A stretch of DNA of 64,000 nt from Ostreococcus lucimarinus. Lineage: Eukaryota. The position numbers and the translations under genes are program-made. The notes beneath the pieces are model-generated. The model ran no database searches. It was not told where the DNA came from and saw nothing but the letters and a program-made list of their open reading frames with translations. Shown here in pieces: positions 12,658-40,352 of the stretch. The stretch lies in NCBI GenBank assembly GCA_000092065.1, contig CP000584.1. One strand, given 5' to 3'. The number at the start of each line of letters is the position of its first letter. The stretch's first letter is position 1.

Positions 12658-12827
12658 CGACGCGCTGCGATCGATTTCGCGCGTTCGGGCGTTCGGTTTT
12701 TGATCTTTCTTGTGAATTCGTGACGTGAAAGCGTCGACCTGTCGGTATAATAATGTACAATTCGTTCTCGCTGAATCGCGTCCGTCATTCGTTCTCATCG
12801 CGCGGCGTCGCGTCGGCGCGCGACGCT

Positions 12828-27680: not shown

Positions 27681-28020
27681 GTGCGCGACGCGAACGCGCG
27701 AGCGCCCGGAACGACGCGACGACGACCGCGCGAACGACGACCGCAAAACGGGGCGACGGGCGATGGCGCGGTAGAATATTCCCAGCGCGCGACCGTCGCG
27801 GAGGGGGGGGGAGGGCGCGCGTCGCGCGCGTCGCGCGCTCTAAAGAGAGACAAGAATGCGCGCGAAGGATGCGCGCGAGGACGCCGCGAATGGGGACGGT
27901 TCGCGCGCGATGGTGGGCGTCGAGCGCGCGAAGACGGCGAACGGAGGGCGGCGAGACGCGCGAACGACTCGAGGGCGTTGACTGACGGATTCACGCGATG
28001 CACGCGCGCGGGAAGCGTAG
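27681..28020 (+). other. Intron of the SPX gene (340 nt)
   Basis: Donor GTGCGC at 27681. GACTGAC at 27981-27986. Acceptor cgtAG at 28019-28020, 35 nt after the branch A. Phase 0. The spliced N-terminus MKFGQLFAATTASMAPNVREQFLDYKLLKQVLK aligns without gaps to the plant SPX consensus (MKFG..x17..FLxYKxLKKxLK). Confidence 0.75.
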
Positions 28021-28752
28021 TTTTTGGATTATAAACTCTTGAAACAGGTGTTAAAGACACTTCCGGAGAATAAGGGCGATGTGAAGCCCGCGACGGCGGG
28101 GGAGGTTCACGCGGGGGAGCGGGCATTCGTGCAGGCGCTGTCCAACGAGTTGAAGAAGTTTAACGAGTTCTTCATGAACAGAGAGGAGGAAATCGTCATG
28201 AAGGAGGGTCATTTGCAGCAGTTATTCGATCAGAACGAAGAGCGCATCGCGAGCGCGTTGAGCGCGGGGGTGTACGACGACGCGTGTTTGGCGGGAGACA
28301 CGGGCATTTGCCAGAAATTTGCCAACTTTCACGGAGAGCTCGTGTTGTTGGAGCACTGGACCAATTTAAACTACGCGGCTTTGGTGAAAATTTTGAAGAA
28401 GCACGATAAGCGATCGAGCTTGGCGCTGCGTTCTCCTTTCCTAGTCAACGTCCTGCAGCAGCCTTTCTACAGCACGGAGGTGCTCACGGCGATGATCGGT
28501 CGCGCCGAGGAGCGATTCCGCGCCATCGAGCACAGGATTCGAGAATTCTTGGGCGAGCACGTCCCGCGCGCTGAGCTCGGGACATCGCCGCAGGTGCAAC
28601 TGAGGGTATCATCGGACGGAAGCGAGATTAGCGACGACGACGACGACGCCTATTCCATCGAGCACACCAAAGCCGCTCTGAACTGCTGGCAAGGTTTGGA
28701 CAAGAGCGAGGCTTTGCAAAACCCGCTCGGCACGCCTCACGACGTTCAGTGA
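28021..28752 (+). CDS. SPX-domain protein, exon 2
   Basis: Track ORF 28024..28752 (TTG start in the track); the reading frame opens at 28021 (F). SPX strings LNYAALVKILKKHDKRS, FVQALSNELKKFNEFF. Confidence 0.85.
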   Translation, partial: FLDYKLLKQVLKTLPENKGDVKPATAGEVHAGERAFVQALSNELKKFNEFFMNREEEIVMKEGHLQQLFDQNEERIASALSAGVYDDACLAGDTGICQKFANFHGELVLLEHWTNLNYAALVKILKKHDKRSSLALRSPFLVNVLQQPFYSTEVLTAMIGRAEERFRAIEHRIREFLGEHVPRAELGTSPQVQLRVSSDGSEISDDDDDAYSIEHTKAALNCWQGLDKSEALQNPLGTPHDVQ

Positions 28753-29051
28753 AAACTTACGCACTAGTTTCTCGCACTCCCACCGCGCGTCGTGACATCT
28801 CGCGCGTGAATGACGCATATTACCCTAGCTCAGCCACACGTCTGGCTGACCACCATTCTTTCCTTGTTGTAAGCTTTTTTTGTTAACTTGGCCTCGAACC
28901 GTCTTGTCTCGCGCGCGCGCATCACGAGCCATTCATCCGCGCGTCGTCGGACCGATCGATCGGCGCCGAAGCGAAGGGACGCCACGCACTCACCTCCAGA
29001 GTCGAGACCGCGCGCGCGCGACATCGACGCGCGCTCGATACGACGGCGCAA

Positions 29052-31682
29052 ATGCGACTCCTCGACGGGTCGCCCTCGGCCCAATACGTCGTTTCACGCG
29101 AGCTCGTCGTTATGCTCGACGCGCCGCGCGCGGGCGTGCCTCGGCGCGTGCGCGAGCGATTCGAAAGTGCGAGCGAGACACATCCATCATCCAACGACGA
29201 ACGACGAGCGGTGTCGAACGAGCGCGACGTTGAGGTAGGCTGCGAGTCAAGATACGAACAGCCTTTTCTGACGACGCGACTCCATGAAACTGACGTGACT
29301 AACGACGTGACTGACGACGTGACTGACGACGCCTCGTCGCGTGAGCTGCAGATCGCTCGAGCATTTCTCGACGCACGGTTGAACGGTGAGCACGAATACG
29401 AAGGCTTTGAAGCGCTACTGTGCGACGAATCCGTGATCTCTCTGACGACGCGACTTCTCGCGCGCGTCGAAGAGCGCGGCGAAGCCAAATTTCCAGCGAA
29501 AATGGTTCTGAGCGCGTACATGATTTGCTACCACGCCGATGTGGTCCTCGGTGGTTCGAACGCGAAGGAGGTACCGTGCGAAGAAACGTCGCTCATTGAT
29601 TCATCCAAGGCGTTGGTTAACGCGTTCGACGCGCTCGCACTCACGATGTCGCGCTCGGGCACGTTCACAGCCACCATCACGAACGCGTTCGAGCGCGCTT
29701 GGCACACGTGGACTGCAGATTTCAAAATTTGGAAATCGAAAGACGCGTTTAGTTTGACCCAAGAGCTCATACGAATCGGTGTTGCGATGGAGTCTTCGAT
29801 GATTCGTGTGTGCGGCGCTCGCGGCGCGCTCGATTCCACAGTCGATCTCGGTGAAGAACGCAACGCGATACGCTCCGCACAATCGCACGATCGCGCGCTT
29901 CTAAGAGAGAAAGTCTTCACGCTTTCGGGTAAAAGCGCAGTCGACGAGTTCGATGCGATGATTACAAGAGTTCGAGCCGCGGGCTTAAGCGACGAAGAGT
30001 CAGCGAGGGCAAAGGATACTCGCACGGATCGGCTCGACGAACGTCGGCGTAAACGGGAAGCCACGAGCGCTCAAATCGCCGCTGCGATCGAAAAGGACAA
30101 AGAACGCGCTCGTCAGCAGATGGCTGGTGAAGAAAACGTTGTTTCGAACTTTGTCGAAATGCAAAAGGATCAGATTTTACACGAATTAATGCTGGACCCC
30201 GAGTGGAAGCTCAGAGCGCCACCAAAGTCACCCGTTGAGGACGATCCCGTACGCGAGCAGGTCGTACAAATCATGAAGAAGGCGTTCTGGGACATGGTGT
30301 ACGAATCACTTGTTCATGATACGATCGACACATCTATCGTTCGCGCTCGAATTTTCGAATGGAAAGACGCCATCATCGACGACACTTTGATTTTGGATCG
30401 CCAGACGACGGAGAGCTTGGAACTGATCCAAAATTCACTCAGCCTCATCGACGTCAACTATCTTGAAGCGAGCATCTTGCGCATGGAAAGCACACCTACA
30501 GACACATCAGAAGCTTTGCGAACCTCGCTCGATCATGGTTACACGGCTCTCAATGCGCTCGCGAATGGTTCCGTGAAGGACGATCTTAGCGCTGCGTTTG
30601 ACAATCTGACGCGAGAACTCGAGACGGCGACGAACGCGGACAAATTCACTTTATCTCGAGCGATTGCTGATGCTTTGGCGTTCTTGTTTGATTTTCGCGA
30701 GCGTATACACCAATCGATGAGCCTTGAAGCAGCCAACGAGGCGATTGATGCACTCCGCGAGACGCTCGCGGTGATGCCAGATGGCATCGAGTACGCGACA
30801 ACGCGCTTCTTGCATCGATTTGATGTGAAAGTCGGGGAGACCGAACTCGCACTTGCGTTTCCTCGCACGTGTGCTTGGCTTGAAAGCGTCGTCGAAGAGC
30901 TTCCGACGCTCGATGCGACATTTGCACCTCTTCTCGATTCTCTCAATGTCGACCGCTGGCGAGGCGTGCGTCTGAGGAGCGGTTTCGAGACTCGAGCCGA
31001 GGGCGCGCAAAAGACTTCTTCGGAAGTAATCAGTTCAACTTTACATCCGACCCGGGTCATGTCTGTGAATGGTGTTTGTCGTGTCGCCTTTGCACGATTG
31101 GTTACCAATCCCAACGCCATGATTCAAGACTTTATCCCGGAAACGCTTGAAAACGACGTGCAACGCATCGATTACTTTTGCCGTGAGTTTCAGAACATTC
31201 AAACGCTTGCCGCTTGTTTGATGCTCTCCACGCAACTCTGTCGCTTAGAGGTTTTCGTGGATGTGGACGCGCTCATCGATCGAGTCGCGGTTCTGCTCTC
31301 TTCGGAACGAGACCTACCGGCGATGTCTCGCGTCGCCGAGGTCCTCTCCGCGACGCTCCCGACGTCCGACGGCGCCCAAACCATCACCAACATGCTTCGC
31401 AAGCTCACGGGTTCCGACGATTGCGCCAATCCGATGTCTGTCGCCATCATCAAGGCCATACGATCCGCGCTCACGATTCGTCTCCTTCACGGCTTCGAAG
31501 GCGAAGCCGTTGATAGGGCGTGCGACGCCCGGCTCGCCGCAGTCTTCGCGTCGCGTCTCCGTCCTCGCGTCGACGCCATCGCTCGCGACGCCGCGCGAGT
31601 GATCAATCTACACGCCACAGTGCGCGCGCCCGTGGTTTCGGCCTTAGTGAACGACTTGCTCGCCAGAGATGATGAAATTTAA
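29052..31682 (+). CDS. T-complex-11 (TCP11)-like protein (tentative)
   Basis: Full 876-aa track ORF with ATG. Central strings QILHELMLDPEWKL and VREQVVQIMKKAFWDMVYESL resemble the TCP11 family. Otherwise helical and non-repetitive. A short 12-nt repeat encodes TDVTNDVTDDVTDD at ~29285-29335. Confidence 0.6.
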   Translation: MRLLDGSPSAQYVVSRELVVMLDAPRAGVPRRVRERFESASETHPSSNDERRAVSNERDVEVGCESRYEQPFLTTRLHETDVTNDVTDDVTDDASSRELQIARAFLDARLNGEHEYEGFEALLCDESVISLTTRLLARVEERGEAKFPAKMVLSAYMICYHADVVLGGSNAKEVPCEETSLIDSSKALVNAFDALALTMSRSGTFTATITNAFERAWHTWTADFKIWKSKDAFSLTQELIRIGVAMESSMIRVCGARGALDSTVDLGEERNAIRSAQSHDRALLREKVFTLSGKSAVDEFDAMITRVRAAGLSDEESARAKDTRTDRLDERRRKREATSAQIAAAIEKDKERARQQMAGEENVVSNFVEMQKDQILHELMLDPEWKLRAPPKSPVEDDPVREQVVQIMKKAFWDMVYESLVHDTIDTSIVRARIFEWKDAIIDDTLILDRQTTESLELIQNSLSLIDVNYLEASILRMESTPTDTSEALRTSLDHGYTALNALANGSVKDDLSAAFDNLTRELETATNADKFTLSRAIADALAFLFDFRERIHQSMSLEAANEAIDALRETLAVMPDGIEYATTRFLHRFDVKVGETELALAFPRTCAWLESVVEELPTLDATFAPLLDSLNVDRWRGVRLRSGFETRAEGAQKTSSEVISSTLHPTRVMSVNGVCRVAFARLVTNPNAMIQDFIPETLENDVQRIDYFCREFQNIQTLAACLMLSTQLCRLEVFVDVDALIDRVAVLLSSERDLPAMSRVAEVLSATLPTSDGAQTITNMLRKLTGSDDCANPMSVAIIKAIRSALTIRLLHGFEGEAVDRACDARLAAVFASRLRPRVDAIARDAARVINLHATVRAPVVSALVNDLLARDDEI

Positions 31683-31729
31683 CGCTCTTCTTCGCGAATC
31701 AGAGGCACCCGGCGCTTGAAGAATCTTCA

Positions 31730-34700
31730 ATGAAGATGAACCGCTTTTCCGTTGCCCACGCGTCAGAATTCTGCATTCAGCGACTCGCGCGGCGAGCACG
31801 CCGCGCTCGAAACGCCGCCAAGTTGTCGCAGGAGAACAACGATGTGTGCGCGCGCGACGAATCCACCGTCGCGCGCGACGAAGCGCGCCAAGGCCTGCTG
31901 TCGCTCGCGCGCGTCGCGAGTCGACGCGTCGATCGCTCGTTACGACGCATGCGCGCGTCAATCAGTCGTAGACGCTCCAACAAAGGAACGGATGGCGAAG
32001 CGTGCTTAGTTTTACACGGATGGCGAAGCAACGCCGACGTGAGCGCGCTGCATGCGCGAAGGTTGCGGCTTTTGAAGCGATTTAGAAAGGCGTCGTGCGT
32101 GAATGGCTCGGAGGAGGCGCCGCACGCGGCGGACGAGACGACGTCTGAATTAATCGATGGACCGTGGTTCTCCTGGGTCGACGACGCGAGTGATGATACG
32201 TTTGAAAATTTGGAAAGCGAGCGAGCGACGGCGTTAATGACGGCGGCGCGATCGGTGGCAAAGTTTGCCATCGAACACGGGCCGTTCAAGTGCGCGGTGG
32301 GATTTTCGCAAGGCGGCGCAATGATCACGTTGTTGTCCAACCCGCAGGTCTTAAGCATGCTGGGGATCGAAGGGGGCTATTTGTGGGACAGTGCGGTGAT
32401 TTGTTGCGGCGCGTCATCTTCATTGCTCGATCTCGCGGCGACGAAGTGGGGTATCGACGTGCGCTCGTCGGCGTCGCCGATGCCGTCGTTGCACGTGTTC
32501 GGTTTTCAAGACAAATTCAAACCACAAGGTGAAGTGCTCATGAATACGTTCCGTGCGTACGACAGCGAGGACCAATTGATCAGACACGCTCTGTATTTAG
32601 ACTGCGGTCACACGTTGCCGGCGTCGCTCGAGACGGACACTGGTTTTCACGCCGAATTCGACGCCTGGCTCGAGGCGGCGACCGAGGCGGCTCCCCGTCG
32701 TTACAGGTCAAACGAGTTCGATGAAGATGTTTTGTTCGACGACATCAAGTCGCTAGAGTATAAGTCGCTCAAGTTTAGTAATCAGCCCACCATCGAGCGC
32801 GCTGAGGCTGATATTGAGAGAGCAGAAGCGGAGGGCGCACGCGCCGCCCAAGCGACGACATTTGCTTCAGCCAGAACTCTCGCCCGAAACATCGATGTAA
32901 GCACCGCAACTGCGCCGAGCGGGAATGATCTCACGTTCAACACGCGCTGTGCGAGTTTGGTTCAGTGTAATGTGTCGCTAAAGTCAAGCAGAGTGAATAT
33001 TCTTGACTTTCTAGCGAGGGCGCCTCGAGCGTCTCCGCTTCTTCGAAGCTTGGACGGGGCAACATTGACGTACGGGCAAGCGATCGACTTCATAACAAAA
33101 GGGGACGGTGATTTACGTAAACTTGGGGCAGATTCGTCATCTGTTTTTGCGTATAATGTCCCTCCAGGCCCGGTCGGTGCGCTAGCTTTTCTCGCCGTCG
33201 CGTCGCAGTGCACCGCCGTCCCTTTGGACCCCGGCATCGCCGAGGAAGACGCCTACGAAGCCCTGACGTCGTGTCGAGTGTCAATGCTTGCGTTATTTCG
33301 AGGAACCGACACTGAAGCAATTGAAACGGCAGCTTCTCGAGCTCATATACCGATTAAATGGTTCGTGATGACGGAAGCTGATACTAAACTTGCCGGTTTG
33401 TACGCGCCGGAATCGTCTCAATCGTCAACGAGTGACGTCGCGCCGCTCGTACAATCGAGTGAAACGATCGGTCTTTTGCTTCGAACTTCTGGGACGACAT
33501 CCAAGTCAAAAGTTGTTCCGTTGGTTATCGGCGCGTTGACTTCAAACGGCGCTACGCTGGCGGCTTCTCTTGAACTCAAAGCTTCAGACGTTTGCATCAA
33601 CGCCATGCCTCTTTTTCACATCGGTGGCCTTTCGTGTTCCATCTTGGCGACGATCGCGGCGCACTCTTCTGTCATCTGCTGTCGTAAGTTTGACGCTCAA
33701 TCGTTTTATGACACCATTACGACGTCGCATGAAGTCAAACCGACGTGGTACTCAGCAATACCGACGATTCATTTGACAGTACTGCAATACGGTCAAGCTG
33801 TGGCTCGTGGCGCAAAGCCATCGCATGCTCTTCGTTTCATACGCTCTGGCGCGGCGGCGCTCAGCCATGCCGACGCAGAAAAGTTGCAACGATTTTGGGA
33901 CGTGCCGATAATACCGACGTATAGTATGAGTGAACAAATGCCGATCACTGGTAAAGGTGTCCACGTTCCGCTCGCCGAGCGTGCGGATACCGTGGGCCAG
34001 CCTCTCTGTTGTTCGTTTGCGCTCGTCGGTGATGGTCATTGCAGACTCACGGCACCTTTTGGACAGCAAGGTGAACTCGTCATCAGCGGTGATAACGTGA
34101 TGACGGCGTATCAAGATGCGGAAGAAGCTAACAATAAGACTTACTTCTACGTTGCCGATAAGCGTTACCTTCGCACTGGCGACATCGCAAAGATGGACCA
34201 CGATGGGTTTGTGTACTTGACTGGTCGTAGTAAGGAACTTATCAAGCGCGGGGGTGAGCAAGTGAGCCCATTAAAAGTCGAGGCTGTGCTCGTGCAGCAT
34301 CCATACGTGCGTGTTGCGGTAGTCTTCAGCGTTCCTTCGGCGCTTTGGGGAGAAGAAGTGGGCGCCGCGATCGTATTGACCGACGACTTTGATGGGCACG
34401 AAGACTCGGCGCTCTCTTCAATCAAGTCTTTCATGGGAACATCGAAAGAACTATCTCGATTTGAAATTCCTGTACACTGGAAATTTGTCGCTGACGAAGA
34501 TTTACCCAAAACATCGACGAAAAAGTATAAGCGTGCGGGTTTGGCCGAGATTTTAAACGTCGCGAAGAAAGTCGACGCGTGCACTTTGCGGCACTCTAAA
34601 AAGGTGACGACCCCGTCGCATGGTCTTGCAGGCTTGCGCTATTGTATGGCTGTAGGTGTGATGTTTAACCACATAGGTGCCATTTGGCAAGGCGAGGACG

Positions 34701-36391
34701 AACGTGATCCTTTGACGTATGGTCCAGCGTGGATGTCTGCCAAGGCGACGACGTTTTACTTTCCAGCGACAACTTTCTTTGTGCTGGGTGGCTTCACGCT
34801 CAGCGCCGCACTGAACGGCAAGGAAATCACAAAAGGAACATGGGGATCGTTCTATAATTCAAGGTTTCAAACACTCTTTCCTCTGTACTTGCTGTCTTTG
34901 TTTCTCGGTCTGATCAACGTCCTCGTGGTGTGTCGCCCGGAAACTTTTAGTAGCGAATTTAGCTGGCAACCACATAACGCAACGCTCACGCTCGACTCTG
35001 GGGCGTGGGCGCAATGCCAGACCGGTCCAGTGGAGATGCCCTACGGCGCTTGGCTCTTCATGACCCTCATCGTTTTCTCTTTCGGGTTGCAAACTTGGTT
35101 CCCGCTGTGGCTTCTCAGCTCGTGGTTCATGTACTACACGTGGTTCAACGGCGTTTACTATTTCATTATTCTCGTGTTTCCTTTCATGCACAACGCGCTC
35201 GCTCGCGTCAAAGGCGAATTCAAAGCCGTACTGAGATGGTTCATCGTTTACTGTGTCGGTACTCTTATCACCGCCGGGCTTTTGGGATTGTACTACGCCT
35301 TACCGGCGTGGGAAGAGCACGACGATGTCGCCAAAGTGAAGAGCTGGAAAGAAAATGTGCAGAACATCTACGCACTCAGCACAATGATGTTTCCGCCGTA
35401 TTGGGTGCCATGTGTCGGTACGGGTATGGCCGCATACTTTTGGTACGACGCCGTACGGCCAGTAGAGTCGCACAAGCGCGCGTTGTACGGCCACTGCGCC
35501 GATGTGCTCACGCTCGCATTTTTCGCCTTCCATCTCGCCCATTTCCTTGACATTGATTGGCCTTATCCGACCAACGTCACGGGCAAGATGTGGGAAGTTG
35601 TACCCGAAGAGCATCATCGCTGGGATACAGGCATCAATCGCTATGTATGGAGCGTCATGATCACTCGGTTGTATTCTCCGTTGATCGCCGTCTGGATCGC
35701 TCTGCTGTCGATACCGAAGGGCAGCCGAACGACTCGCCTTCTTGAATCAAACTTACTAAGCAAAGTGCTCGCCCCGACGAGTTATGGTTGCTTCTTGTTC
35801 CACCAGATCATTGGACAGTGGTATTGGTGGGCGACTCGTAATGGAAATGGCATCAAGACCGCAGACGTTGGCGACAAGACGTCGTGGATGTGGTGGGCGT
35901 ATCCGAAGGAATATTACTGGTTCTCGCCGCAGCCGTTACCTGTGGCGTGGTACGAGTTCTTCTTCATCGTCGGAATGACGACGTGCTTTTCGGCGGCGGT
36001 AGACAGGTGGCTCAATACTCCACTGACGGTGCTATGGATCAAGTTTATAACCTTCTTCCGGAATATTATATGGCCGAATTCGGCGAAGAGCGCGGAGACT
36101 TCGGGTAGCAGCGAGGAGTCGTCGCCTGAAGACGCGGTGATCAAAGCAGTCGCCGCGGTCACGGGCGTCGACGAACGAGTGTCTCTCGACGACTCCTTTG
36201 ATGAGATCGGTCTCGTTTCTGTCGGTCTGCCAGTGCTCGTGGGTATAATCAACGCCGGCGAACAATTCGCCGTCATCTCGGCTCAAGAAATAGCGACGTG
36301 CGCGAACCTTCGTGACGTCGTCAGAATAATCGCTTCCAAGCGTGAATCGGCTCGATCGAGTGTAGGGTTTGGAACTAGAAGCTCTCTGTAA
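31730..36391 (+). CDS. Four-module fusion protein: FSH1-type serine hydrolase + ANL adenylating ligase + acyltransferase-3 membrane domain + carrier-protein-like C-terminus
   Basis: Uninterrupted 1,553-aa track ORF (alternative ATG 31949). Hydrolase ~32000-32645: LVLHGW, GFSQGG, GFQDKF, DCGHTLP. Ligase ~33017-34564: LLRTSGTTSKSKVVPL, TWYSAIPTIH, LRFIRSGAAALS, TGDIAKMDHDGFVYLTGRSKELIKRGGEQVSP, PKTSTKKYKR. AT3 ~34619-36049: GLAGLRYCMAVGVMFNH plus about 10-12 hydrophobic helices. Carrier-like ~36119-36349: VSLDDSFDEIGLVSVGLPVLVGII. Confidence 0.85.
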   Translation: MKMNRFSVAHASEFCIQRLARRARRARNAAKLSQENNDVCARDESTVARDEARQGLLSLARVASRRVDRSLRRMRASISRRRSNKGTDGEACLVLHGWRSNADVSALHARRLRLLKRFRKASCVNGSEEAPHAADETTSELIDGPWFSWVDDASDDTFENLESERATALMTAARSVAKFAIEHGPFKCAVGFSQGGAMITLLSNPQVLSMLGIEGGYLWDSAVICCGASSSLLDLAATKWGIDVRSSASPMPSLHVFGFQDKFKPQGEVLMNTFRAYDSEDQLIRHALYLDCGHTLPASLETDTGFHAEFDAWLEAATEAAPRRYRSNEFDEDVLFDDIKSLEYKSLKFSNQPTIERAEADIERAEAEGARAAQATTFASARTLARNIDVSTATAPSGNDLTFNTRCASLVQCNVSLKSSRVNILDFLARAPRASPLLRSLDGATLTYGQAIDFITKGDGDLRKLGADSSSVFAYNVPPGPVGALAFLAVASQCTAVPLDPGIAEEDAYEALTSCRVSMLALFRGTDTEAIETAASRAHIPIKWFVMTEADTKLAGLYAPESSQSSTSDVAPLVQSSETIGLLLRTSGTTSKSKVVPLVIGALTSNGATLAASLELKASDVCINAMPLFHIGGLSCSILATIAAHSSVICCRKFDAQSFYDTITTSHEVKPTWYSAIPTIHLTVLQYGQAVARGAKPSHALRFIRSGAAALSHADAEKLQRFWDVPIIPTYSMSEQMPITGKGVHVPLAERADTVGQPLCCSFALVGDGHCRLTAPFGQQGELVISGDNVMTAYQDAEEANNKTYFYVADKRYLRTGDIAKMDHDGFVYLTGRSKELIKRGGEQVSPLKVEAVLVQHPYVRVAVVFSVPSALWGEEVGAAIVLTDDFDGHEDSALSSIKSFMGTSKELSRFEIPVHWKFVADEDLPKTSTKKYKRAGLAEILNVAKKVDACTLRHSKKVTTPSHGLAGLRYCMAVGVMFNHIGAIWQGEDERDPLTYGPAWMSAKATTFYFPATTFFVLGGFTLSAALNGKEITKGTWGSFYNSRFQTLFPLYLLSLFLGLINVLVVCRPETFSSEFSWQPHNATLTLDSGAWAQCQTGPVEMPYGAWLFMTLIVFSFGLQTWFPLWLLSSWFMYYTWFNGVYYFIILVFPFMHNALARVKGEFKAVLRWFIVYCVGTLITAGLLGLYYALPAWEEHDDVAKVKSWKENVQNIYALSTMMFPPYWVPCVGTGMAAYFWYDAVRPVESHKRALYGHCADVLTLAFFAFHLAHFLDIDWPYPTNVTGKMWEVVPEEHHRWDTGINRYVWSVMITRLYSPLIAVWIALLSIPKGSRTTRLLESNLLSKVLAPTSYGCFLFHQIIGQWYWWATRNGNGIKTADVGDKTSWMWWAYPKEYYWFSPQPLPVAWYEFFFIVGMTTCFSAAVDRWLNTPLTVLWIKFITFFRNIIWPNSAKSAETSGSSEESSPEDAVIKAVAAVTGVDERVSLDDSFDEIGLVSVGLPVLVGIINAGEQFAVISAQEIATCANLRDVVRIIASKRESARSSVGFGTRSSL

Positions 36392-36524
36392 TAAGTTATC
36401 ACACGCTAAGCATCATCGTCACTCAAACGACGACGAGTTGCGTATCCTCTCCTTGTGCTCGTGCGCCTCGCGTCCGAGGAAAACCTTTGCTCGACTGATT
36501 CAGTCACGTCACAACCCAGACGCC

Positions 36525-36662
36525 ATGAACTCGATCAAGCGTGCGATCGCGCGCGTGCTGGCGTCAGACGAGTTACACTACGCCATCATCCCCGTCATCA
36601 TCATCGTCGGTATGAACACGACGCCGAAACCGAGCATTTTGTCGCTCTTGACGCCGATTTAG
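36525..36662 (+). CDS. TOM7: Mitochondrial import receptor subunit TOM7-like mini-protein (45 aa)
   Basis: ATG at 36525 inside track ORF 36369..36662. MNSIKRAIARVLASDELHYAIIPVIIIVGMNTTPKPSILSLLTPI resembles TOM7 (HYGxIPxVxYLG...PxxLxLLxP). Confidence 0.55.
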   Translation: MNSIKRAIARVLASDELHYAIIPVIIIVGMNTTPKPSILSLLTPI

Positions 36663-36763
36663 ACGAGTGTAGAGATCTAGAGATTAGCAACGAACGAACG
36701 CATCGACCGCGACACGGATACGAGTGTAATGAAAACGAAGTGGTTTGTTACAAGTTGCGCGTT

Positions 36764-38398
36764 TTAGCTTCGCTCGCGCAGGCGTCGATCAAAGTCGGAG
36801 AGGTCGTAATCATCGCCGGCGCCCTCGTTGGACGTGTACACGGCGTCACCCACGACGCGCTGGGACGCAGCTGAGCTCGCGGCGGCGAGCTTGGCGGCTA
36901 AACGAGGCTCTGGACTCGCGATACGGCGAGCTGCGAGCAATCGAGAGTTATTGCGAGCATCGATTTCCCGGTTCTTGCCTTGGTTGCGGAAATAGCGCAA
37001 CAGCGGAACGACGAAGAATAATACGCCGTAGCTCAGTAAACCGGGGAGCAAGCCCGAGAAGGCGCGCGCCAACTCCACGTACTCTCGGGTGCGGTACATG
37101 ATTTGCGGGTCGTTAATCATCTGCGCCAAAATCACCACCCCCACTAAGTTCGCAACGCCGAGTAAACCCGCTTGAATCTTTTGCGACGGCTCGGCGAGCG
37201 AAAACACCCATCGCTCCTCTTGCGCCAACGCCTCACTTTCGCCTCTACTTCGCGCCGTTGTTTTTCCAGCGGTGGACTCCATGTTAGGAAATCGATAAAT
37301 GATCGATCCTGTGACGGTATTCACCTCTGGCGTGCCCTCGAAGCGGGTGAGCGCGGGCAAGACAAAGGACTCGTCTTCGTATCCCGCCGTGTCCAGAAAC
37401 GGCGCCAACTGCTCCGCCGTCACAACGCCCTTATTCTTTTGAATCAAGCGTCCAACCAACTCCCAACGCCGCTTTTCGAAATCCAAGTTCGGATCGCCGT
37501 CGCCGAAAACAAAACTGAAGACAGCCTCAAAAAAGTTCATCTCTCTGTCGCGTCTTCGCGGTCGGCGATAGTAGTACGGATCCCAATACCAAAACAAATC
37601 AAACGGCGAAATGTAAAAGCGCGGCCCAGCGAAGCCACCACCGCGCCGATCTGAACGATCGTCACTACTCTTGGCGCTCATGAGGGCGAAGATGGCGGTG
37701 TAGACAATCATCACGCTCGCCACGAGCGACGTTCCAAACGCCACGCGAAAAACGTACGAAGCTAAGCTTTTCGCCCCGCTCACGATCGGTTCGATCTTCA
37801 TCTTGAACGATTTCGAGCTCAAAATCCCTCGTGTCGACCTGGGAAACACGTATGTGAGATCGCCCGCGCTGGATACTTCCAAAGTCGCTCCTGTGTCCGC
37901 CGCCAGCGCGTTGAGCGCCTTTTGCGTCTCGAACACGCTCGCCCCCGAAATCGAGCTCACGTCCCCCACAGTGGCGCGATACTGCGCCTTCTCGATCGCT
38001 TTAAGTGTTTTTTCGCGCAATTCAGCGTTCAAATCATCGCTCTCCACGCGTCCTCCCGGGGCGACGGCGAGCTTGTCGTCCTCCGCGAGCGCGCTCTCGC
38101 GAGGCAGGTCCAACTCGACTCGATCGTCGTAGTCCCATCCTCCTCGCGCGCGCGTCGTCACCGCTCCATCGCGCGCGCGCGCGAAGCGCGTCTTTCGCGC
38201 GACGCGCCCGTCCTCAGCGCGCGTCGCCGCGTCGCTCGCCCGCGCGCGCGACCTCGTCGGCGTCATCTTGGACGACGCGCGAACGACGACGACGACGACG
38301 CGCGGCGACGACGACGACGCGCGCGCTCGAACGGCGCCGACCGCGAGCGGCGGCATCGCGCGCGAGTTGTGCGTCGTCGGCACCGCGGTGGCGCGCAT
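36764..38398 (-). CDS. Conserved plastid-lineage membrane protein (function unknown) with a transit-peptide-like N-terminus
   Basis: ATG at 38398 (MRATAVPTTHNSRAMPPLAVGAVRARASSSS) within track ORF 36764..38497(-). The motif NFFEAVFSFVFGDGDPN and several TM helices are, from memory, typical of a cyanobacterial/plant protein family. The assignment is tentative. Confidence 0.7.
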   Translation of the reverse strand: MRATAVPTTHNSRAMPPLAVGAVRARASSSSPRVVVVVVRASSKMTPTRSRARASDAATRAEDGRVARKTRFARARDGAVTTRARGGWDYDDRVELDLPRESALAEDDKLAVAPGGRVESDDLNAELREKTLKAIEKAQYRATVGDVSSISGASVFETQKALNALAADTGATLEVSSAGDLTYVFPRSTRGILSSKSFKMKIEPIVSGAKSLASYVFRVAFGTSLVASVMIVYTAIFALMSAKSSDDRSDRRGGGFAGPRFYISPFDLFWYWDPYYYRRPRRRDREMNFFEAVFSFVFGDGDPNLDFEKRRWELVGRLIQKNKGVVTAEQLAPFLDTAGYEDESFVLPALTRFEGTPEVNTVTGSIIYRFPNMESTAGKTTARSRGESEALAQEERWVFSLAEPSQKIQAGLLGVANLVGVVILAQMINDPQIMYRTREYVELARAFSGLLPGLLSYGVLFFVVPLLRYFRNQGKNREIDARNNSRLLAARRIASPEPRLAAKLAAASSAASQRVVGDAVYTSNEGAGDDYDLSDFDRRLRERS

Positions 38399-38486
38399 GT
38401 CGATCGAAGCGAAGGGCGCGTCGTGAGATGACGCGATGCGACGCGAAGGACGAGCGAGCGACAGTGCGAGACGCGCGACGCGCGCG

Positions 38487-40352
38487 ATGTCTCGCAAGGG
38501 CGGATGGGGACGCGGGGACGAGGATGATTATTACGACGATTACGACGACGACGAGGCGTACGACGACGACGACGAGGCGTACGACGACGACGACGAAGCC
38601 GCAGGCGCCGGGCGCGAGGCCCTCGAGCGAGCCGAGGATGGCGAGCGCGCGACGACGGGCGCGAGGGCGGCGAAGACGAGCAAGGCGATGGAGTTGATGA
38701 AGACGAAACCGACGCCCACGCGCGTGGGGATGAAAGAGATCGAGGCGCGGATGGCGGCGGAGAGAAACGCGAGGTATCCCGCGGCGCCGCGCGGGCCGAG
38801 CGGAGGCGGCGCGAGCGCGGGGAAGTTTGCGTTCGATACGCCTTCACCGGACGCGGCAGCGGCGGCGGCGCGAGCGCGGGGGAGTAAGTCTGGGGCGAGC
38901 GCGGCGATGGAAACGACGGAAACGCTCGTGAAAGAATTTGCGGCCAAGACGCGAGTCGGCGGCGACGCGACCGCGTTTGCGGGATACGAAGCTTCGAGCG
39001 CCGAGCGCGCGGCGTACACCTCACCGGAGGGCGGTGACGTGCACGTCGTGATATTAGGACACGTTGATGCGGGGAAATCGACGCTTAGTGGGCGATTGAT
39101 GTACGCTTTGAAAGCGGTCGATGACAGAGCGATGCATAAAAACGTGCGCGATTCCAAGGCGAGCGGGAAATCGTCGTTCGCCTGGGCTTGGGTGATGGAC
39201 TGTAGACCGGAAGAACGAGAGCGCGGGGTGACGATAGACGTCAGCATGAAGCGATGTGTGTTAGATGGACATCGACAGTTGGTAGTTTTAGATGCTCCTG
39301 GGCACAAAGATTTCGTGCCGAACGCGATTTCCGGCGCGTCGCAAGCCGACGCGGGCGTTTTGGTCATTGACGGCGCGATGGGTGGATTTGAAAACGGTTT
39401 CGCTGCGACTCCAGGTCACACGGGACAAACGCGCGAGCACGCGCGATTGGCGCGGGCGCTTGGTTTACATTCCCTCATCGTCGTCATCAATAAGATGGAC
39501 TGCGTTGAGTATGGAGAGGAGCGATTTAGATTTGTCGTCGATGCGCTTCAAAACTTTCTCATCGACGACGTCGGTTTTAGCCAAGAACAGCTCACGTTCG
39601 TGCCGGTTTCGGGGATTGAGGGTACAAATATTTCGCCCGATGACGCGGCTGCATTGCCCGATGCATTGGCCTCGTGGTATCGAGGCCCGACGCTCGTAGA
39701 CGCGTTGCGAGCGGTTAAAATTCCATCTCGAGGAGCGCCGAAACCGCTTCGCATGCCAATCGCAGACATCATCACCGAAGTGCGCTCTCTCGGTGGAGCC
39801 GCGTGCGGTGGTAAGATCGAAGCTGGAAGCTTGATGAAAGGTCAAAAGCTACTCGTGATGCCGGCCAACGTTTCGGCCACTGTGAAGTGCGTGGAAGTGG
39901 ACGGAATAGCCGTCGACTTTGCGCCGATTGGCACATCCGTGGACGTCGGCTTGAGCGACGTGGATTCGCGGCATTTAGAAGTCGGGAGCGTTTTATGCCA
40001 TGCGTCGCATCCAATAACGCCCACGGATGAGATTGAAGTCCGTGTGCTCACGACGGACATGCTTCGTGTGCCTTTACTCAAAGGCTCAAGGGTTGTTTTG
40101 CATTCGCACATGCTCGCGTGCGACGCAACGATTGAGGAACTCGTCGCGCAAGTGGACACGGTGACGGGAGACGTGGTAAAGGCAAGTCCTCGGTGTATTA
40201 CGCGCGAACAGAGCGCTATTTTGCGTATTCGCACGTCTAGGAATATTTGCGTCGAACCGGTCGAGATTTCACCGACGTTAAGCCGCGTGACGCTTCGCAT
40301 GAATGGCAAAACCATGGCGCTCGGTGTGGTGACTGCGATTTGGCGCTCTTAG
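38487..40352 (+). CDS. HBS1: HBS1/eRF3-family translational GTPase (HBS1-like)
   Basis: ATG at 38487 (MSRKGGWGRGDEDDYYDDYDDDEAYDDDD) within track ORF 38436..40352. G1 GHVDAGKST, G2 RGVTID, G3 DAPGHKDF, G4 NKMD, GQTREHARLARALG. EF-Tu-like domains II/III follow. Confidence 0.85.
   Translation: MSRKGGWGRGDEDDYYDDYDDDEAYDDDDEAYDDDDEAAGAGREALERAEDGERATTGARAAKTSKAMELMKTKPTPTRVGMKEIEARMAAERNARYPAAPRGPSGGGASAGKFAFDTPSPDAAAAAARARGSKSGASAAMETTETLVKEFAAKTRVGGDATAFAGYEASSAERAAYTSPEGGDVHVVILGHVDAGKSTLSGRLMYALKAVDDRAMHKNVRDSKASGKSSFAWAWVMDCRPEERERGVTIDVSMKRCVLDGHRQLVVLDAPGHKDFVPNAISGASQADAGVLVIDGAMGGFENGFAATPGHTGQTREHARLARALGLHSLIVVINKMDCVEYGEERFRFVVDALQNFLIDDVGFSQEQLTFVPVSGIEGTNISPDDAAALPDALASWYRGPTLVDALRAVKIPSRGAPKPLRMPIADIITEVRSLGGAACGGKIEAGSLMKGQKLLVMPANVSATVKCVEVDGIAVDFAPIGTSVDVGLSDVDSRHLEVGSVLCHASHPITPTDEIEVRVLTTDMLRVPLLKGSRVVLHSHMLACDATIEELVAQVDTVTGDVVKASPRCITREQSAILRIRTSRNICVEPVEISPTLSRVTLRMNGKTMALGVVTAIWRS

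What the first reader, a model, noticed from the sequence alone, without database searches (positions are those of the whole stretch)
31730..36391. One-polypeptide 'activate - carry - transfer - hydrolyse' membrane acylation machine (serine hydrolase + adenylating ligase + acyltransferase-3 + carrier-like tail)
A single uninterrupted 1,553-codon ORF strings together four modules that normally occur as separate proteins. (i) aa ~91-300 is an FSH1/OVCA2-type serine hydrolase with an intact-looking Ser/Asp/His set (GFSQGG, GFQDKF, DCGHTLP). (ii) aa ~430-945 is an ANL-superfamily adenylating enzyme (LLRTSGTTSKSKVVPL; TGDIAKMDHDGFVYLTGRSKELIKRGGEQVSP; terminal PKTSTKKYKR). Its strings TWYSAIPTIH and LRFIRSGAAALS look closest, by eye, to the Pcs60/AAE3 short-chain (oxalate-type) acyl-CoA ligase clade. 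(iii) aa ~964-1440 is a 10-12-helix acyltransferase-3 (OafA/OatA/NolL-type) membrane domain that opens with the family's LAGLR...FNH signature. (iv) aa ~1464-1540 is a carrier-protein-like segment (VSLDDSFDEIGLVSVGLPVLVGII) with a Ser at the position of the phosphopantetheine attachment Ser. Characterised AT3 enzymes take acyl-CoA in the cytosol and acylate extracytoplasmic glycans. The bacterial Dlt pathway uses separate ligase, carrier, membrane acyltransferase and esterase-fold proteins. This ORF looks like a fused eukaryotic analogue in which a small carboxylic acid would be adenylated, tethered, handed to the membrane acyltransferase and possibly edited or released by the hydrolase. I know of no characterised protein with this architecture. 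Substrate and acceptor are unknown.
Basis: partly seen in the sequence, partly recalled or inferred. Interest (0 to 1): 0.8.

Follow-up and report, generated by a model that had tools for sequence, protein, structure and literature searches.

The report
Membrane acyltransferase with built-in acyl supply
This green-alga gene really does encode one 1,553-residue protein joining a hydrolase, an acid-activating enzyme, a membrane acyltransferase and a carrier domain; the same uncharacterised four-part protein is also widespread in bacteria, and it probably feeds its membrane pore from its own tethered carrier rather than from free acyl-CoA.

Summary
ORF 31730-36391 (+) is uninterrupted and encodes FSH1 serine hydrolase (aa 92-301), an ANL adenylating enzyme (429-945), an AT3/TmAT membrane domain (965-1427) and a carrier-protein domain (1466-1543).

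All four modules are recovered by HMMs or by fold. Every catalytic residue is invariant in 12 algal and 25 bacterial homologues.

- The architecture is not eukaryote-specific. Collinear single ORFs of 1,370-1,495 aa (about 30% identity) occur in Acinetobacter, Pseudomonas, Marinobacter, cyanobacteria and others.
- Eleven bacterial loci carry an Sfp/EntD-type phosphopantetheinyl transferase next to the gene. This is strong evidence that the tail is a real carrier.
- Charge analysis gives a 10-helix, N-in/C-in topology, which puts the carrier on the same face as the A domain.
- The A domain is closest to oxalyl-CoA synthetases but lacks both oxalate-specific residues.
- The AT3 arginine proposed to bind the 3'-phosphate of CoA is lost across the family.

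Best reading: a Dlt-like, self-supplying AT3 acyltransferase. Substrate and acceptor are unknown, and I found no functional description. Rating: new variant of a known kind, interest about 0.7.

The parts
31730..36391 (+). Whole gene: 1,553-codon ORF plus stop, one polypeptide
   Evidence: Full-length orthologues. End-to-end alignment with bacterial single ORFs.
31730..31999 (+). aa 1-90: Arg/Ser-rich N-terminal extension. It is not conserved among orthologues and is absent from the bacterial proteins. The true start codon may lie downstream.
   Evidence: Alignment A1. Bacterial FSH1 domains start at residue 1-8.
32003..32632 (+). aa 92-301: FSH1/OVCA2-type alpha/beta serine hydrolase. Catalytic triad: Ser193 (32306-32308), Asp261 (32510-32512), His294 (32609-32611).
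   Evidence: Pfam PF03959, 53.6 bits against a cut-off of 21. Best PDB sequence hit is yeast FSH1, 1ycd. The triad is invariant in 37 of 37 sequences.
32633..33013 (+). aa 302-428: partly conserved linker between the hydrolase and the A domain
   Evidence: Alignment A1. Lies inside the single HSP with the P. chlororaphis protein.
33014..34564 (+). aa 429-945: ANL-superfamily adenylating domain (N- and C-subdomains). Motifs: A3 LLRTSGTTSKSK; gate His630; A8 GRSKELIKRGGE; A10 Lys932 (34523-34525). Pocket residues: Gly632, Gly707, Ala708, Pro738.
   Evidence: Pfam AMP-binding 125.8 bits and AMP-binding_C 37.7 bits. NCBIfam FadD7-like match over aa 429-937. Best PDB hits are oxalyl-CoA synthetases. 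Motif and pocket residues are invariant in 37 of 37.
34622..36010 (+). aa 965-1427: AT3 / TmAT membrane acyltransferase domain, 10 transmembrane helices. Features: R970-X10-H981 in TMH1 (His981 at 34670-34672); Arg1045 as the first Arg of the RXXR motif, with Thr1048 replacing the second; a re-entrant helix at aa 1105-1117 (35042-35080); an invariant Cys1068/Cys1096 pair in the outward TMH3-4 loop.
36014..36070 (+). aa 1429-1447: amphipathic, positively charged helix directly after TMH10. Predicted to lie on the cytosolic face. It is followed by a flexible linker of about 18 residues.
   Evidence: AlphaFold helix 480-498 and low pLDDT at 503-513. Net charge +1.9 averaged over 23 homologues. 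The homologous segment carries many R, D and K residues in distant relatives.
36125..36358 (+). aa 1466-1543: carrier-protein (PP-binding) domain, a four-helix bundle. The predicted phosphopantetheine attachment residue Ser1497 (36218-36220) lies in the motif G-L-V-S at the N-cap of helix 2.

Best explanation
The gene encodes a self-supplying transmembrane acyltransferase. It is an AT3 (TmAT-fold) enzyme whose acyl donor is made and held by the same polypeptide instead of being drawn from the acyl-CoA pool.

Proposed cycle:
1. The cytosolic ANL domain adenylates a carboxylic acid. The acid is of unknown identity, is the same in algae and bacteria, and is not oxalate.
2. The acyl group is passed to the phosphopantetheine thiol on Ser1497 of the C-terminal carrier. 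The carrier hangs on a flexible linker directly after TMH10, on the cytosolic face.
3. The acyl-pantetheine arm enters the cytoplasm-facing pore of the AT3 domain, which in other AT3 proteins admits the pantetheine arm of acyl-CoA. This brings the thioester to the invariant His981 near the outer face.
4. The acyl group is transferred to an extracytoplasmic or lumenal acceptor. In bacteria this possibly involves the co-encoded periplasmic PEBP-family protein.
5. The N-terminal FSH1 hydrolase acts as an accessory thioesterase that clears mis-loaded or stalled carrier, as type II thioesterases and LovG do.

Shown here: the four domains, their order, intact catalytic residues, the carrier fold, the predicted topology, cross-kingdom conservation and the operon context. 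Inferred: every chemical step, the substrate and the acceptor.
For: Architecture and integrity:
- All four domains are recovered.
- The FSH1 triad, A-domain motifs A3/A5/A7/A8/A10, AT3 His981 and the carrier G-L-x-S are invariant in 12 algal plus 25 bacterial sequences that share only about 30% identity.

The carrier is real:
- Four-helix fold with Ser1497 at the N-cap of helix 2.
- Tails of the FSH1-less subfamily pass the Pfam cut-off.
- An Sfp/EntD-type PPTase (4PPT_N + ACPS) lies within a few kb in 11 of about 27 bacterial loci. Genomes carry only one to a few PPTase genes, so this is far above chance (inference).
- NCBI's pipeline named a fragment of this protein 'acyl carrier protein'.

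Carrier and A domain lie on the same face:
- Loop charges alternate +2.0 / -1.1 / +0.9 / -2.1 / +1.9 / -1.6 / +1.0 / -2.8 / +0.9 / -0.2 / +1.9 across 23 homologues. This fits 10 crossings, N-in/C-in, if helix 1105-1117 is the re-entrant element described for OafB (PMC9833829).
- There is no 11th helix of the kind that takes SGNH domains outside.
- In the OafB model the acyl-CoA channel entrance is bounded by the N-terminus and TMH9/10 (PMC9833829). These are exactly the points where the A domain and the carrier are attached here.

Signs of a donor switch:
[quoted passage not shown] It is Thr1048 here and is never basic in 37 of 37 sequences. R970-X10-H981 and Arg1045 are kept.
- Outside the family, the nearest full-length relatives of the A domain are carrier-loading A-T-TE and C-A-T proteins (P0013-P0019).

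FSH1 as accessory thioesterase:
- It is absent from a sister A-AT3-T subfamily.
- FSH1 domains sit in dinoflagellate PKS/NRPS megasynthases beside thiolation domains (PMC8283056).
- LovG, which shares this alpha/beta-hydrolase domain structure with FSH1-domain proteins, is indispensable for lovastatin biosynthesis (PMC10512364, citing Xu et al. 2013, whose title calls it the thioesterase that releases dihydromonacolin L).

Precedent for the logic: in the Dlt pathway DltA loads DltC, DltC interacts with the membrane acyltransferase DltB, and DltB moves D-alanine across the membrane (abstracts of PMC11035591 and PMC9338922).
Against: - No biochemical step has been tested.
- Characterised AT3 enzymes use acyl-CoA, and the field's view is that ACP is not their donor (PMC9558356).
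- The A domain's closest characterised relatives are CoA ligases. Nothing in the sequence excludes CoA as its thiol acceptor, and I saw no FAAL-type insertion.
- The residue before the Ser is Val or Ala, not the usual Asp or His. In the window sequence PP-binding and AT3 both fall just under the Pfam cut-offs.
- The topology rests on charge bias and a model, not on experiment. If helix 1105-1117 counts as one true crossing, the carrier would lie outside.
- I could not obtain model coordinates or PAE, so the position of the carrier relative to the pore is unknown.
- The Oac alignment that maps RXXR is weak (hhalign E 0.13). It rests on the FFxxxG...F..R..R..P motif region.
Confidence: 0.55

Rival explanations
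1. Channelled acyl-CoA route. The A domain is an ordinary acyl-CoA synthetase fused to the AT3 domain so that acyl-CoA is produced at the mouth of the pore. The AT3 domain uses acyl-CoA as every characterised AT3 does. The carrier-like tail has another role, such as docking, regulation or a second product.
For: The closest solved relatives of the A domain are oxalyl-, malonyl- and fatty-acyl-CoA ligases. AT3 donors are acyl-CoA where tested (PMC9558356). R970-X10-H981 and Arg1045, which are implicated in CoA handling, are retained.
Against: It does not explain an invariant G-L-x-S serine in a carrier fold across 37 sequences. It does not explain a dedicated PPTase in the bacterial operon. It does not explain the family-wide loss of the Arg proposed to bind the 3'-phosphate of CoA. 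The tail is kept in every subfamily examined.
Confidence: 0.2
2. Lipid-remodelling machine, Aas-like. The substrate is a fatty acid. FSH1 is a (lyso)phospholipase that frees it. The A domain and carrier re-activate it. The AT3 domain acylates a lipid or lipoglycan in the outer leaflet, with the periplasmic PEBP protein handling the lipid acceptor. This is the same tethered-donor chemistry as the best explanation, with a specific choice of substrate and acceptor and a non-editing role for FSH1.
For: - A phosphatidylethanolamine-binding-protein family gene with a signal peptide sits directly upstream in 19 bacterial loci.
- The top NCBIfam matches are fatty-acid-CoA ligase families.
- The pocket loses polar and bulky residues relative to AAE3: H216 to G, C288 to G, S289 to A.
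- Yeast FSH1 is reported as a lysophospholipase (reference list of PMC11878206).
- E. coli Aas is a precedent for a fused acyltransferase plus ANL enzyme that uses ACP (own knowledge).
Against: The NCBIfam scores are far below the family cut-offs (238 against 650), and the closest solved structures are short-chain dicarboxylate ligases. The function of bacterial PEBP proteins is unknown. FSH1 is dispensable in a sister subfamily. Characterised AT3 acceptors are mostly carbohydrates (PMC9558356).
Confidence: 0.15
3. Degenerate or non-functional tail. The C-terminal domain is a relic carrier fold that is never modified and serves only as a structural cap on the cytosolic face of the AT3 domain.
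For: In the window protein PP-binding is below the Pfam cut-off. The canonical Asp or His before the Ser is missing. Helix 2 is unusually hydrophobic in the Ostreococcus sequences.
Against: The Ser, the preceding Gly-Leu and the fold are conserved from cyanobacteria to algae. Related tails pass the cut-off. A PPTase is co-encoded in 11 loci.
Confidence: 0.07
4. Annotation or assembly artefact. The ORF joins separate genes, or it is bacterial contamination in an algal assembly.
For: None found. The only oddity is that the first ~85 residues are not conserved and the upstream ORF ends 47 bp before the ATG.
Against: The ORF is flanked by eukaryotic genes on the same DNA: Tcp11, a DEAD-box helicase and an eEF1A-like GTPase. 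An orthologue lies on a 945-kb O. tauri contig and is annotated as one protein. The architecture is collinear in 23 bacterial single ORFs. GC3 is like that of the neighbours.
Confidence: 0.01

Closest known systems
Dlt D-alanylation pathway (DltA ligase, DltC carrier, DltB membrane acyltransferase, DltD)
   Same: The same logic. An ANL enzyme loads a phosphopantetheinyl carrier in the cytosol. The carrier interacts with a polytopic membrane acyltransferase, which moves the acyl group across the membrane (abstracts of PMC11035591 and PMC9338922). That the carrier docks on the cytosolic face, threads its pantetheine arm into a tunnel and delivers the acyl group to a conserved His comes from my own knowledge of the DltB-DltC crystal structure; I did not read it in these papers.
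   Different: DltB is an MBOAT, a fold unrelated to AT3/TmAT (PMC12423673). The Dlt components are separate proteins, whereas here everything is one chain with the carrier placed after the membrane domain. The esterase-fold partner DltD acts outside the cell, whereas FSH1 is cytosolic. The substrate here is not an amino acid, because the A domain belongs to the acyl-CoA-ligase branch.
AT3 acyltransferases: OafA/OafB, OatA (AT3-SGNH) and Oac, WbaK, Lag1 (AT3-only)
   Same: Homologous membrane domain: a 10-helix core, R-X10-H in TMH1, a re-entrant element in the TMH3-4 loop, the first Arg of RXXR, and outward transfer (PMC7448272, PMC9833829).
   Different: - Known fusion partners are an extracytoplasmic SGNH domain reached through an 11th helix, an N-terminal NRF domain in animals, or the VanT racemase (PMC9558356, PMC12423673). 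I found none with an adenylating enzyme, a carrier or FSH1.
- This protein has no 11th helix and no SGNH domain.
- The second Arg of RXXR is lost.
- The donor is probably carrier-bound rather than acyl-CoA.
Oxalyl-CoA synthetases AAE3 / Pcs60 / LsOCS (PDB 5ie0-5ie3, 8aff, 6qjz)
   Same: Closest solved relatives of the A domain, at 183-215 bits and aligned over nearly the full length. All ANL core motifs are shared, as are the gate His (AtAAE3 H214 = His630) and the A10 Lys (K500 = Lys932).
   Different: The two residues conserved only in oxalyl-CoA synthetases and contacting oxalate are both replaced: S289 to Ala708 and H319 to Pro738. H216 becomes Gly632 and C288 becomes Gly707. All four replacements are invariant in 37 of 37 sequences (PMC8905533). 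It is fused to other domains and probably loads a carrier, not CoA.
FSH1 / OVCA2 / LovG serine hydrolases
   Same: Pfam FSH1 is above its cut-off and the Ser-Asp-His triad is intact. Family members sit beside carrier domains in dinoflagellate megasynthases (PMC8283056). LovG, which PMC10512364 describes as sharing this alpha/beta-hydrolase domain structure, is the lovastatin-pathway thioesterase named in the title of Xu et al. 2013.
   Different: Here it is the N-terminal domain of a membrane protein. Sequence identity to yeast FSH1 is low (E 0.02 against 1ycd). Its substrate is unknown.
Aas (acyl-ACP synthetase / 2-acyl-GPE acyltransferase) and AlmEFG (own knowledge)
   Same: An ANL enzyme and a carrier dedicated to one membrane acyltransferase. 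In Aas the ligase and the acyltransferase are fused.
   Different: Their acyltransferases are PlsC- or LpxL-type enzymes acting at the inner leaflet, not a pore-forming AT3. Their carrier is a separate protein.

Membership tests
AT3 / Acyl_transf_3 (PF01757), TmAT superfamily | Match to the family HMM at or above the curated cut-off | tested here: met
   The window protein scores 29.0 bits, 2 bits under the cut-off of 31. Collinear homologues of the same family score 47.5, 63.9, 43.4, 47.9 and 47.2 bits, and PF01757 is precomputed for the identical protein P0001. The feature is met at family level and marginal for this sequence alone.
AT3 / Acyl_transf_3 (PF01757), TmAT superfamily | 10-transmembrane-helix TmAT core fold with a re-entrant element between TMH3 and TMH4 | tested here: met
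AT3 / Acyl_transf_3 (PF01757), TmAT superfamily | R/K-X10-H motif in TMH1 (OafA R14/H25) | tested here: met
   R970-X10-H981. The His is present in 37 of 37 sequences and the Arg in 35 of 37 (motif as defined in PMC7448272).
AT3 / Acyl_transf_3 (PF01757), TmAT superfamily | RXXR motif on the cytoplasmic face of TMH3 (Oac R73/R76, OafB R71/R74) | tested here: not met
   hhalign to phage Sf6 Oac maps Arg1045 onto R73 and Thr1048 onto R76. The second position is T, N, P, V, G, A, S or Q and never R or K in 37 of 37 sequences. The motif is described as 'highly but not absolutely' conserved (PMC7448272), so this marks a variant rather than excluding membership.
AT3 / Acyl_transf_3 (PF01757), TmAT superfamily | Acyl-CoA as donor and an extracytoplasmic acceptor | not testable with these tools
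   Needs biochemistry. Context evidence points to a carrier-bound donor.
Phosphopantetheinyl carrier proteins (PP-binding, PF00550) | Match to the family HMM at or above the curated cut-off | tested here: inconclusive
   The window tail scores 19.7 bits alone and 12.2 bits within the whole protein, against a cut-off of 20.8. PP-binding is the only family hit, in 11 of 12 orthologue tails. Homologous tails of the FSH1-less subfamily score 30.1, 33.8 and 31.2 bits.
Phosphopantetheinyl carrier proteins (PP-binding, PF00550) | Four-helix bundle with the attachment Ser at the N-terminus of helix 2 | tested here: met
Phosphopantetheinyl carrier proteins (PP-binding, PF00550) | Conserved G-x-(D/H)-S motif | tested here: met
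   G1494-L1495-(V/A)-S1497: Gly and Ser are invariant in 37 of 37 and Leu in 36 of 37 (one Ile), and the serine aligns with the GGHS and GLDS serines of PKS and FAS carriers. The D/H position is Val or Ala, which is a variant.
Phosphopantetheinyl carrier proteins (PP-binding, PF00550) | Actual phosphopantetheinylation by a PPTase | not testable with these tools
   Indirect only: an Sfp/EntD-type PPTase gene is adjacent in 11 bacterial loci.
ANL superfamily adenylating enzymes (PF00501 / PF13193) | HMM match above cut-off and intact core motifs A3, A5, A7, A8 and A10 Lys | tested here: met
   125.8 and 37.7 bits. T586, G588, K594, E735, D818, R833, K839, G841 and K932 are invariant in 37 of 37.
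Oxalyl-CoA synthetase (AAE3/Pcs60) subfamily | Oxalate-contacting residues conserved only in this subfamily (AtAAE3 Ser289 and His319) | tested here: not met
   Residue-by-residue alignment to 5ie0 gives S289 to Ala708 and H319 to Pro738, plus H216 to Gly632 and C288 to Gly707. Residue roles are taken from PMC8905533. All are invariant in the family. It is the closest clade, but this protein is not a member.
FSH1 serine hydrolases (PF03959) | HMM match above cut-off and a Ser-Asp-His triad | tested here: met
   53.6 bits against a cut-off of 21. S193, D261 and H294 are invariant in 37 of 37. The best PDB sequence hit is yeast FSH1, 1ycd, with the GxSxG serine aligned.
Dlt-type pathway | MBOAT-fold membrane component (DltB) and an extracytoplasmic DltD | tested here: not met
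   The membrane domain is AT3/TmAT, not MBOAT. No extracytoplasmic esterase domain is present. This is an analogue by mechanism only, not a member.

The most novel reading that the evidence does not exclude
This would be the first AT3/TmAT acyltransferase family that does not use acyl-CoA. Instead it threads the phosphopantetheine arm of its own covalently attached carrier domain into the transmembrane pore. An in-cis adenylating domain charges the carrier and an in-cis FSH1 thioesterase proofreads it. Because the acyl-pocket residues are identical from cyanobacteria and Acinetobacter to picoalgae, the family would install one specific, still unidentified acyl modification on an extracytoplasmic or lumenal molecule in both domains of life. 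In bacteria a periplasmic PEBP-family protein would be its outside partner.
Probability: 0.45. Interest if true: 0.85.

Novelty: new variant of a known kind. Interest (0 to 1): 0.72.

Why it matters
How AT3 proteins obtain and move their acyl group, and whether AT3-only proteins need partners, are open questions in the field (PMC9558356). A family in which the donor-making enzyme and a carrier are welded to the two ends of the AT3 core, at the points that bound the proposed acyl-CoA entrance, offers a natural experiment on that mechanism.

It would also show convergence between the two unrelated membrane acyltransferase folds: MBOAT in the Dlt pathway and TmAT here. Because the carrier traps the intermediate covalently, mass spectrometry of the loaded protein can read out the unknown acyl group directly.

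The family is present in tractable bacteria (Acinetobacter, Pseudomonas chlororaphis) and in model picoalgae (Ostreococcus tauri), so the hypothesis can be tested immediately. The conserved PEBP neighbour could also give bacterial PEBP proteins their first biochemical context. At present these proteins are annotated only as 'AMP-binding protein' or 'AMP-dependent synthetase/ligase'.

Tried and rejected
- **Hydropathy alone.** It gave ambiguous helix calls and flagged the carrier's helix 2 as hydrophobic. I considered that the tail might hold an 11th or 12th transmembrane helix. I rejected this because the same segment carries D, E, K, N and R in relatives and folds as carrier helix 2.
- **Eleven-crossing topology.** This would put the carrier outside, as in OafA/OafB. 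I rejected it on the charge alternation, on the published re-entrant TMH3-4 helix, and on the Pfam AT3 profile ending only after the last helix. It remains the main way the model could fail.
- **The afdb50 library** was unavailable, so I could not survey architectures in AFDB.
- **tblastn of the P. chlororaphis protein against plasmids.** It found only A-domain matches and no full-length homologue or useful annotation.
- **tblastn of the bacterial operon partners against the window.** PEBP, AraC regulator, DJ-1/PfpI, PPTase, SDR and porin gave no hits. The algal gene's neighbours are unrelated housekeeping genes.
- **Recent horizontal transfer.** The window's GC profile dips around the gene, but the gene's GC3 (0.61) matches several neighbours. 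A midpoint-rooted NJ tree simply separates algal from bacterial sequences, so no direction can be inferred.
- **Oxalate as substrate.** Rejected on the pocket residues.
- **Literature searches.** Eight searches found no description of this architecture.
- **Model coordinates and PAE** are not exposed, so I could not measure the distance from the carrier Ser to the pore.

Full report
**1. The observation**

The window holds one open reading frame from 31730 to 36391 on the + strand, 1,553 codons plus a stop.

| Family | Residues | Bits | Cut-off |
|---|---|---|---|
| FSH1 | 92-301 | 53.6 | 21 |
| AMP-binding | 442-794 | 125.8 | 29.9 |
| AMP-binding_C | 849-932 | 37.7 | 24.5 |
| Acyl_transf_3 | 965-1391 | 29.0 | 31 |
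| PP-binding | 1469-1532 | 12.2 | 20.8 |

Three modules pass outright. The acyltransferase and the carrier are marginal in this sequence and needed independent tests.

**2. Organism and reality of the fusion**

The protein is identical to a metagenomic protein (P0001). It has eleven full-length orthologues at 61-72% identity. One of them is the annotated Ostreococcus tauri protein XP_003079071.2, named 'AMP-dependent synthetase/ligase', on a 945-kb contig.

The window's flanking genes are eukaryotic housekeeping genes: Tcp11, a DEAD-box helicase and an eEF1A-like GTPase. The window is therefore from an Ostreococcus-like picoalga.

A more distant relative, P0012, has 2,330 aa and 34% identity. 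It keeps all four modules behind an extra N-terminal region that contains one transmembrane helix. A EukProt transcript, P0172, spans the end of the A domain (the last ~40 profile positions of AMP-binding plus AMP-binding_C), then AT3 and the tail.

The decisive result is that the same collinear protein exists in bacteria.
- Methylobacterium WP_455395485.1 (1,425 aa) and Neisseriaceae MDF7676129.1 (1,421 aa) carry FSH1 + AMP-binding + AMP-binding_C + Acyl_transf_3 + PP-binding.
- A scan of one genome per prokaryotic species found 29 loci. They are in Acinetobacter, Pseudomonas, Marinobacter, Neptuniibacter, Marinibactrum, Marinobacterium, Aeromonas, Pseudoduganella, Comamonas, Azonexus, Zoogloea, Hyphomicrobiales, Neisseriaceae, Gilliamella and the cyanobacteria Leptolyngbya and Nodosilinea.
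- In 23 of these loci the gene is a single ORF of 1,369-1,495 aa.
- The window protein aligns with the P. chlororaphis protein in one HSP, aa 93-1543 against aa 23-1422, at 32% identity.

A profile search of 1.84 billion cluster representatives finds 157 representatives at E <= 1e-30. Many are 1,400-1,650 aa long with the AT3+tail match at the C-terminus.

The fusion is therefore real, old and not specific to eukaryotes.

**3. The acyltransferase domain**

Bacterial homologues pass the Pfam AT3 cut-off at 47.5 and 63.9 bits.

Of the motifs that define AT3:
- R/K-X10-H in TMH1 is present as R970-X10-H981 (motif from PMC7448272). The His is in 37 of 37 family members.
- In RXXR, only the first Arg (Arg1045) survives. 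A profile alignment to phage Sf6 Oac puts Arg1045 on Oac R73 and Thr1048 on Oac R76. The second position is never basic in 37 of 37 sequences.

**4. Topology**

Simple hydropathy was ambiguous. I therefore took helix boundaries from the model and counted charges in 23 homologues.

The net charge of successive loops alternates as follows: +2.0 (N-terminus), -1.1, +0.9, -2.1, +1.9, -1.6, +1.0, -2.8, +0.9, -0.2, +1.9 (after the last helix). This is the pattern of ten crossings with both ends inside. It requires that the short uncharged helix 1105-1117 is the re-entrant element that the OafB model places in the TMH3-4 loop (PMC9833829).

The outward TMH3-4 loop carries two cysteines, 1068 and 1096. 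They are invariant even in bacteria, which fits an extracytoplasmic disulfide.

After the last helix comes a positively charged amphipathic helix (1429-1447). A low-confidence linker of about 18 residues follows, and then the tail. There is no counterpart of the 11th helix that carries SGNH domains outside in OafA, OafB and OatA.

The hydrolase, the A domain and the tail are therefore all predicted to be cytosolic. It rests on prediction only.

**5. The tail**

- Scanned alone, the tail scores 19.7 bits against PP-binding. PP-binding is the only Pfam family hit, in 11 of 12 orthologue tails.
- A profile of the tails finds a PKS carrier (8xjy_C, E 0.023) and the rat FAS ACP in the PDB. Ser1497 aligns with their GGHS and GLDS serines.
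- In both AlphaFold models the tail is a four-helix bundle with Ser1497 as the first residue of helix 2.
- In the G-L-(V/A)-S motif, Gly and Ser are invariant in 37 of 37 sequences and Leu in 36 of 37.
- A sister subfamily without FSH1 (A + AT3 + tail, 1,165-1,240 aa) has tails that pass the Pfam cut-off at 30-34 bits.

The strongest evidence is the genomic context in bacteria.

| Neighbour | Pfam | Position | Loci |
|---|---|---|---|
| Secreted PEBP-family protein | PF01161 | directly upstream | 19 |
| AraC regulator | HTH_18 / HTH_AraC | mostly downstream | 20 |
| ElbB-like protein | DJ-1/PfpI | nearby | 12 |
| Sfp/EntD-type phosphopantetheinyl transferase | 4PPT_N + ACPS | nearby | 11 |
| Porin | Porin_4 | nearby | 4 |

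Genomes carry only one to a few PPTase genes. Finding one within a few kb in 11 of about 27 loci means the protein needs phosphopantetheinylation (inference).

**6. The A domain**

Its best solved relatives are oxalyl-CoA synthetases: 6qjz at 215 bits, 5ie0 at 192 and 8aff at 183.

[quoted passage not shown] Mapped residue by residue:

| AtAAE3 | This protein |
|---|---|
| H214 | His630 (kept) |
| V215 | Ile631 |
| H216 | Gly632 |
| C288 | Gly707 |
| S289 | Ala708 |
| M314 | Met733 (kept) |
| H319 | Pro738 |
| K500 | Lys932 (kept) |

The four replacements (Gly632, Gly707, Ala708, Pro738) are invariant in all 37 algal and bacterial sequences. Two conclusions follow. The substrate is very probably not oxalate. 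It is very probably the same acid in bacteria and algae. The pocket has lost polar and bulky side chains.

Beyond the family itself, the nearest full-length relatives of the A domain are A-T-TE and C-A-T proteins, which load carriers (P0013-P0019).

**7. The hydrolase**

The FSH1 match is above the cut-off, and Ser193, Asp261 and His294 are invariant. The best PDB sequence hit is yeast FSH1, 1ycd.

The domain is missing from the sister subfamily, so it is accessory to an A-AT3-T core.

FSH1 domains occur in dinoflagellate PKS/NRPS transcripts together with thiolation domains (PMC8283056). [quoted passage not shown] The title of the paper it cites (Xu et al. 2013) calls LovG the thioesterase that releases dihydromonacolin L. 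A proofreading or release thioesterase acting on the loaded carrier is therefore the most economical role. A lipase role cannot be excluded.

**8. Mechanism proposed**

1. The cytosolic A domain adenylates an unidentified carboxylic acid.
2. It transfers the acyl group to the pantetheine thiol on Ser1497.
3. The carrier, tethered just after TMH10, presents the acyl-pantetheine arm to the cytoplasmic mouth of the AT3 pore.
4. His981 near the outer face mediates transfer to an extracytoplasmic or lumenal acceptor.
5. FSH1 clears wrong or stalled acyl groups.

Three structural points fit this model.
- In OafB the donor channel entrance is bounded by the N-terminus and TMH9/10. Here these are the attachment points of the A domain and the carrier.
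- The arginine proposed to bind the CoA-specific 3'-phosphate has been lost.
- The linker is long enough to let the carrier shuttle between the two sites (inference).

The logic parallels the Dlt pathway, in which DltA loads DltC, DltC interacts with DltB, and DltB moves D-alanine across the membrane (abstracts of PMC11035591 and PMC9338922). The membrane fold, however, is unrelated.

Reviews of AT3 proteins list SGNH, NRF and VanT-racemase fusions, and they state that acyl-CoA rather than ACP is taken to be the donor (PMC9558356, PMC12423673). No paper I could search describes this architecture.

**9. What remains unknown or weak**

- No chemistry has been shown.
- The A domain could still make free acyl-CoA. 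That rival gets about 0.2.
- The topology is a prediction.
- The RXXR mapping rests on a weak alignment of a strong motif region.
- Substrate, acceptor, subcellular membrane in the alga, and the role of the PEBP, DJ-1/PfpI and porin neighbours are open.
- A lipid-remodelling version of the model is possible. In it the substrate is a fatty acid, the acceptor is a lipid, and FSH1 is a lipase.
- The NJ tree separates algal from bacterial sequences without showing a direction of transfer.

**10. Verdict**

The feature is real, intact, conserved across two domains of life and functionally undescribed. It is best seen as a new variant of the AT3 membrane acyltransferases, one that carries its own donor-making and donor-holding modules.

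Three corrections apply: the family is not eukaryote-specific, oxalate is unlikely to be the substrate, and the hydrolase is a cytosolic accessory rather than a DltD-like outside partner.

Noticed in passing
L002-L030 (e.g. L002:6686-7294+, 11904-12785+, 12879-13538+, 13613-14341+; L010:11747-12751+): The bacterial homologues sit in a conserved neighbourhood. It holds a secreted PEBP-family protein directly upstream (19 loci), an AraC regulator (20), an ElbB-like DJ-1/PfpI protein (12), an Sfp/EntD-type PPTase (11) and a porin (4). The roles of the PEBP and DJ-1/PfpI partners are unexplained.
   Followed up: partly
P0222 (1,647 aa): This family member has an N-terminal EF-hand pair in front of FSH1 + A + AT3 + PP-binding. 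That suggests a calcium-regulated, presumably eukaryotic, variant.
   Followed up: no
P0277, P0303, P0313, P0281, P0251, P0255: A sister subfamily of 1,165-1,315 aa has A + AT3 + PP-binding but no FSH1. In three of its members the carrier tails pass the Pfam cut-off (30-34 bits).
   Followed up: partly
P0012 (alignment columns 1-600): The most distant eukaryotic full-length homologue carries an extra N-terminal region of about 600 residues ending in one transmembrane helix. It has no Pfam match. If it is lumenal, it could be an outside partner domain.
   Followed up: no
P0090 = MDA9599241.1: A 447-aa fragment in the same 90% cluster as this algal protein is deposited at NCBI as 'acyl carrier protein, partial [bacterium]'. 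It is probably a picoeukaryote contig binned into a bacterial MAG.
   Followed up: no
L011 (Aeromonas popoffii), L026 (Nodosilinea), L001 (GCA_036704275.1): In these assemblies the gene is split into two or three ORFs: 733 + 718 aa in L011, 494 + 150 + 421 aa in L026, and FSH1 called as a separate gene in L001. This may be a frameshift, a pseudogene or sequencing error.
   Followed up: no
window 29052-31682 (+) and 31683-31999: A Tcp11-domain ORF of 876 aa ends only 47 bp before the target's ATG. The target's first ~85 residues are not conserved among orthologues, so the real start codon may be downstream (for example Met74).
   Followed up: partly
window 28000-38000 versus 2000-27000: GC falls to 0.52-0.58 around the gene, against 0.61-0.69 upstream. 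The gene's GC3 (0.61) resembles that of Tcp11 (0.62) and the 1,373-aa ORF at 43766-47887 (0.63), so there is no clear sign of foreign origin.
   Followed up: partly
window 34931-34933 and 35015-35017 (Cys1068, Cys1096); 34976-34984 (N1083-A-T): Two cysteines in the outward TMH3-4 loop are invariant in all 37 algal and bacterial sequences, which suggests a disulfide. An N-x-T sequon between them is kept in most, but not all, algal orthologues.
   Followed up: partly
window 36764-38497 (-) and 38436-40352 (+): A 577-aa ORF on the minus strand has no Pfam match. It overlaps by about 60 bp the start of the eEF1A/HBS1-like GTPase ORF on the plus strand, so one of the two start codons is probably miscalled.
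   Followed up: no
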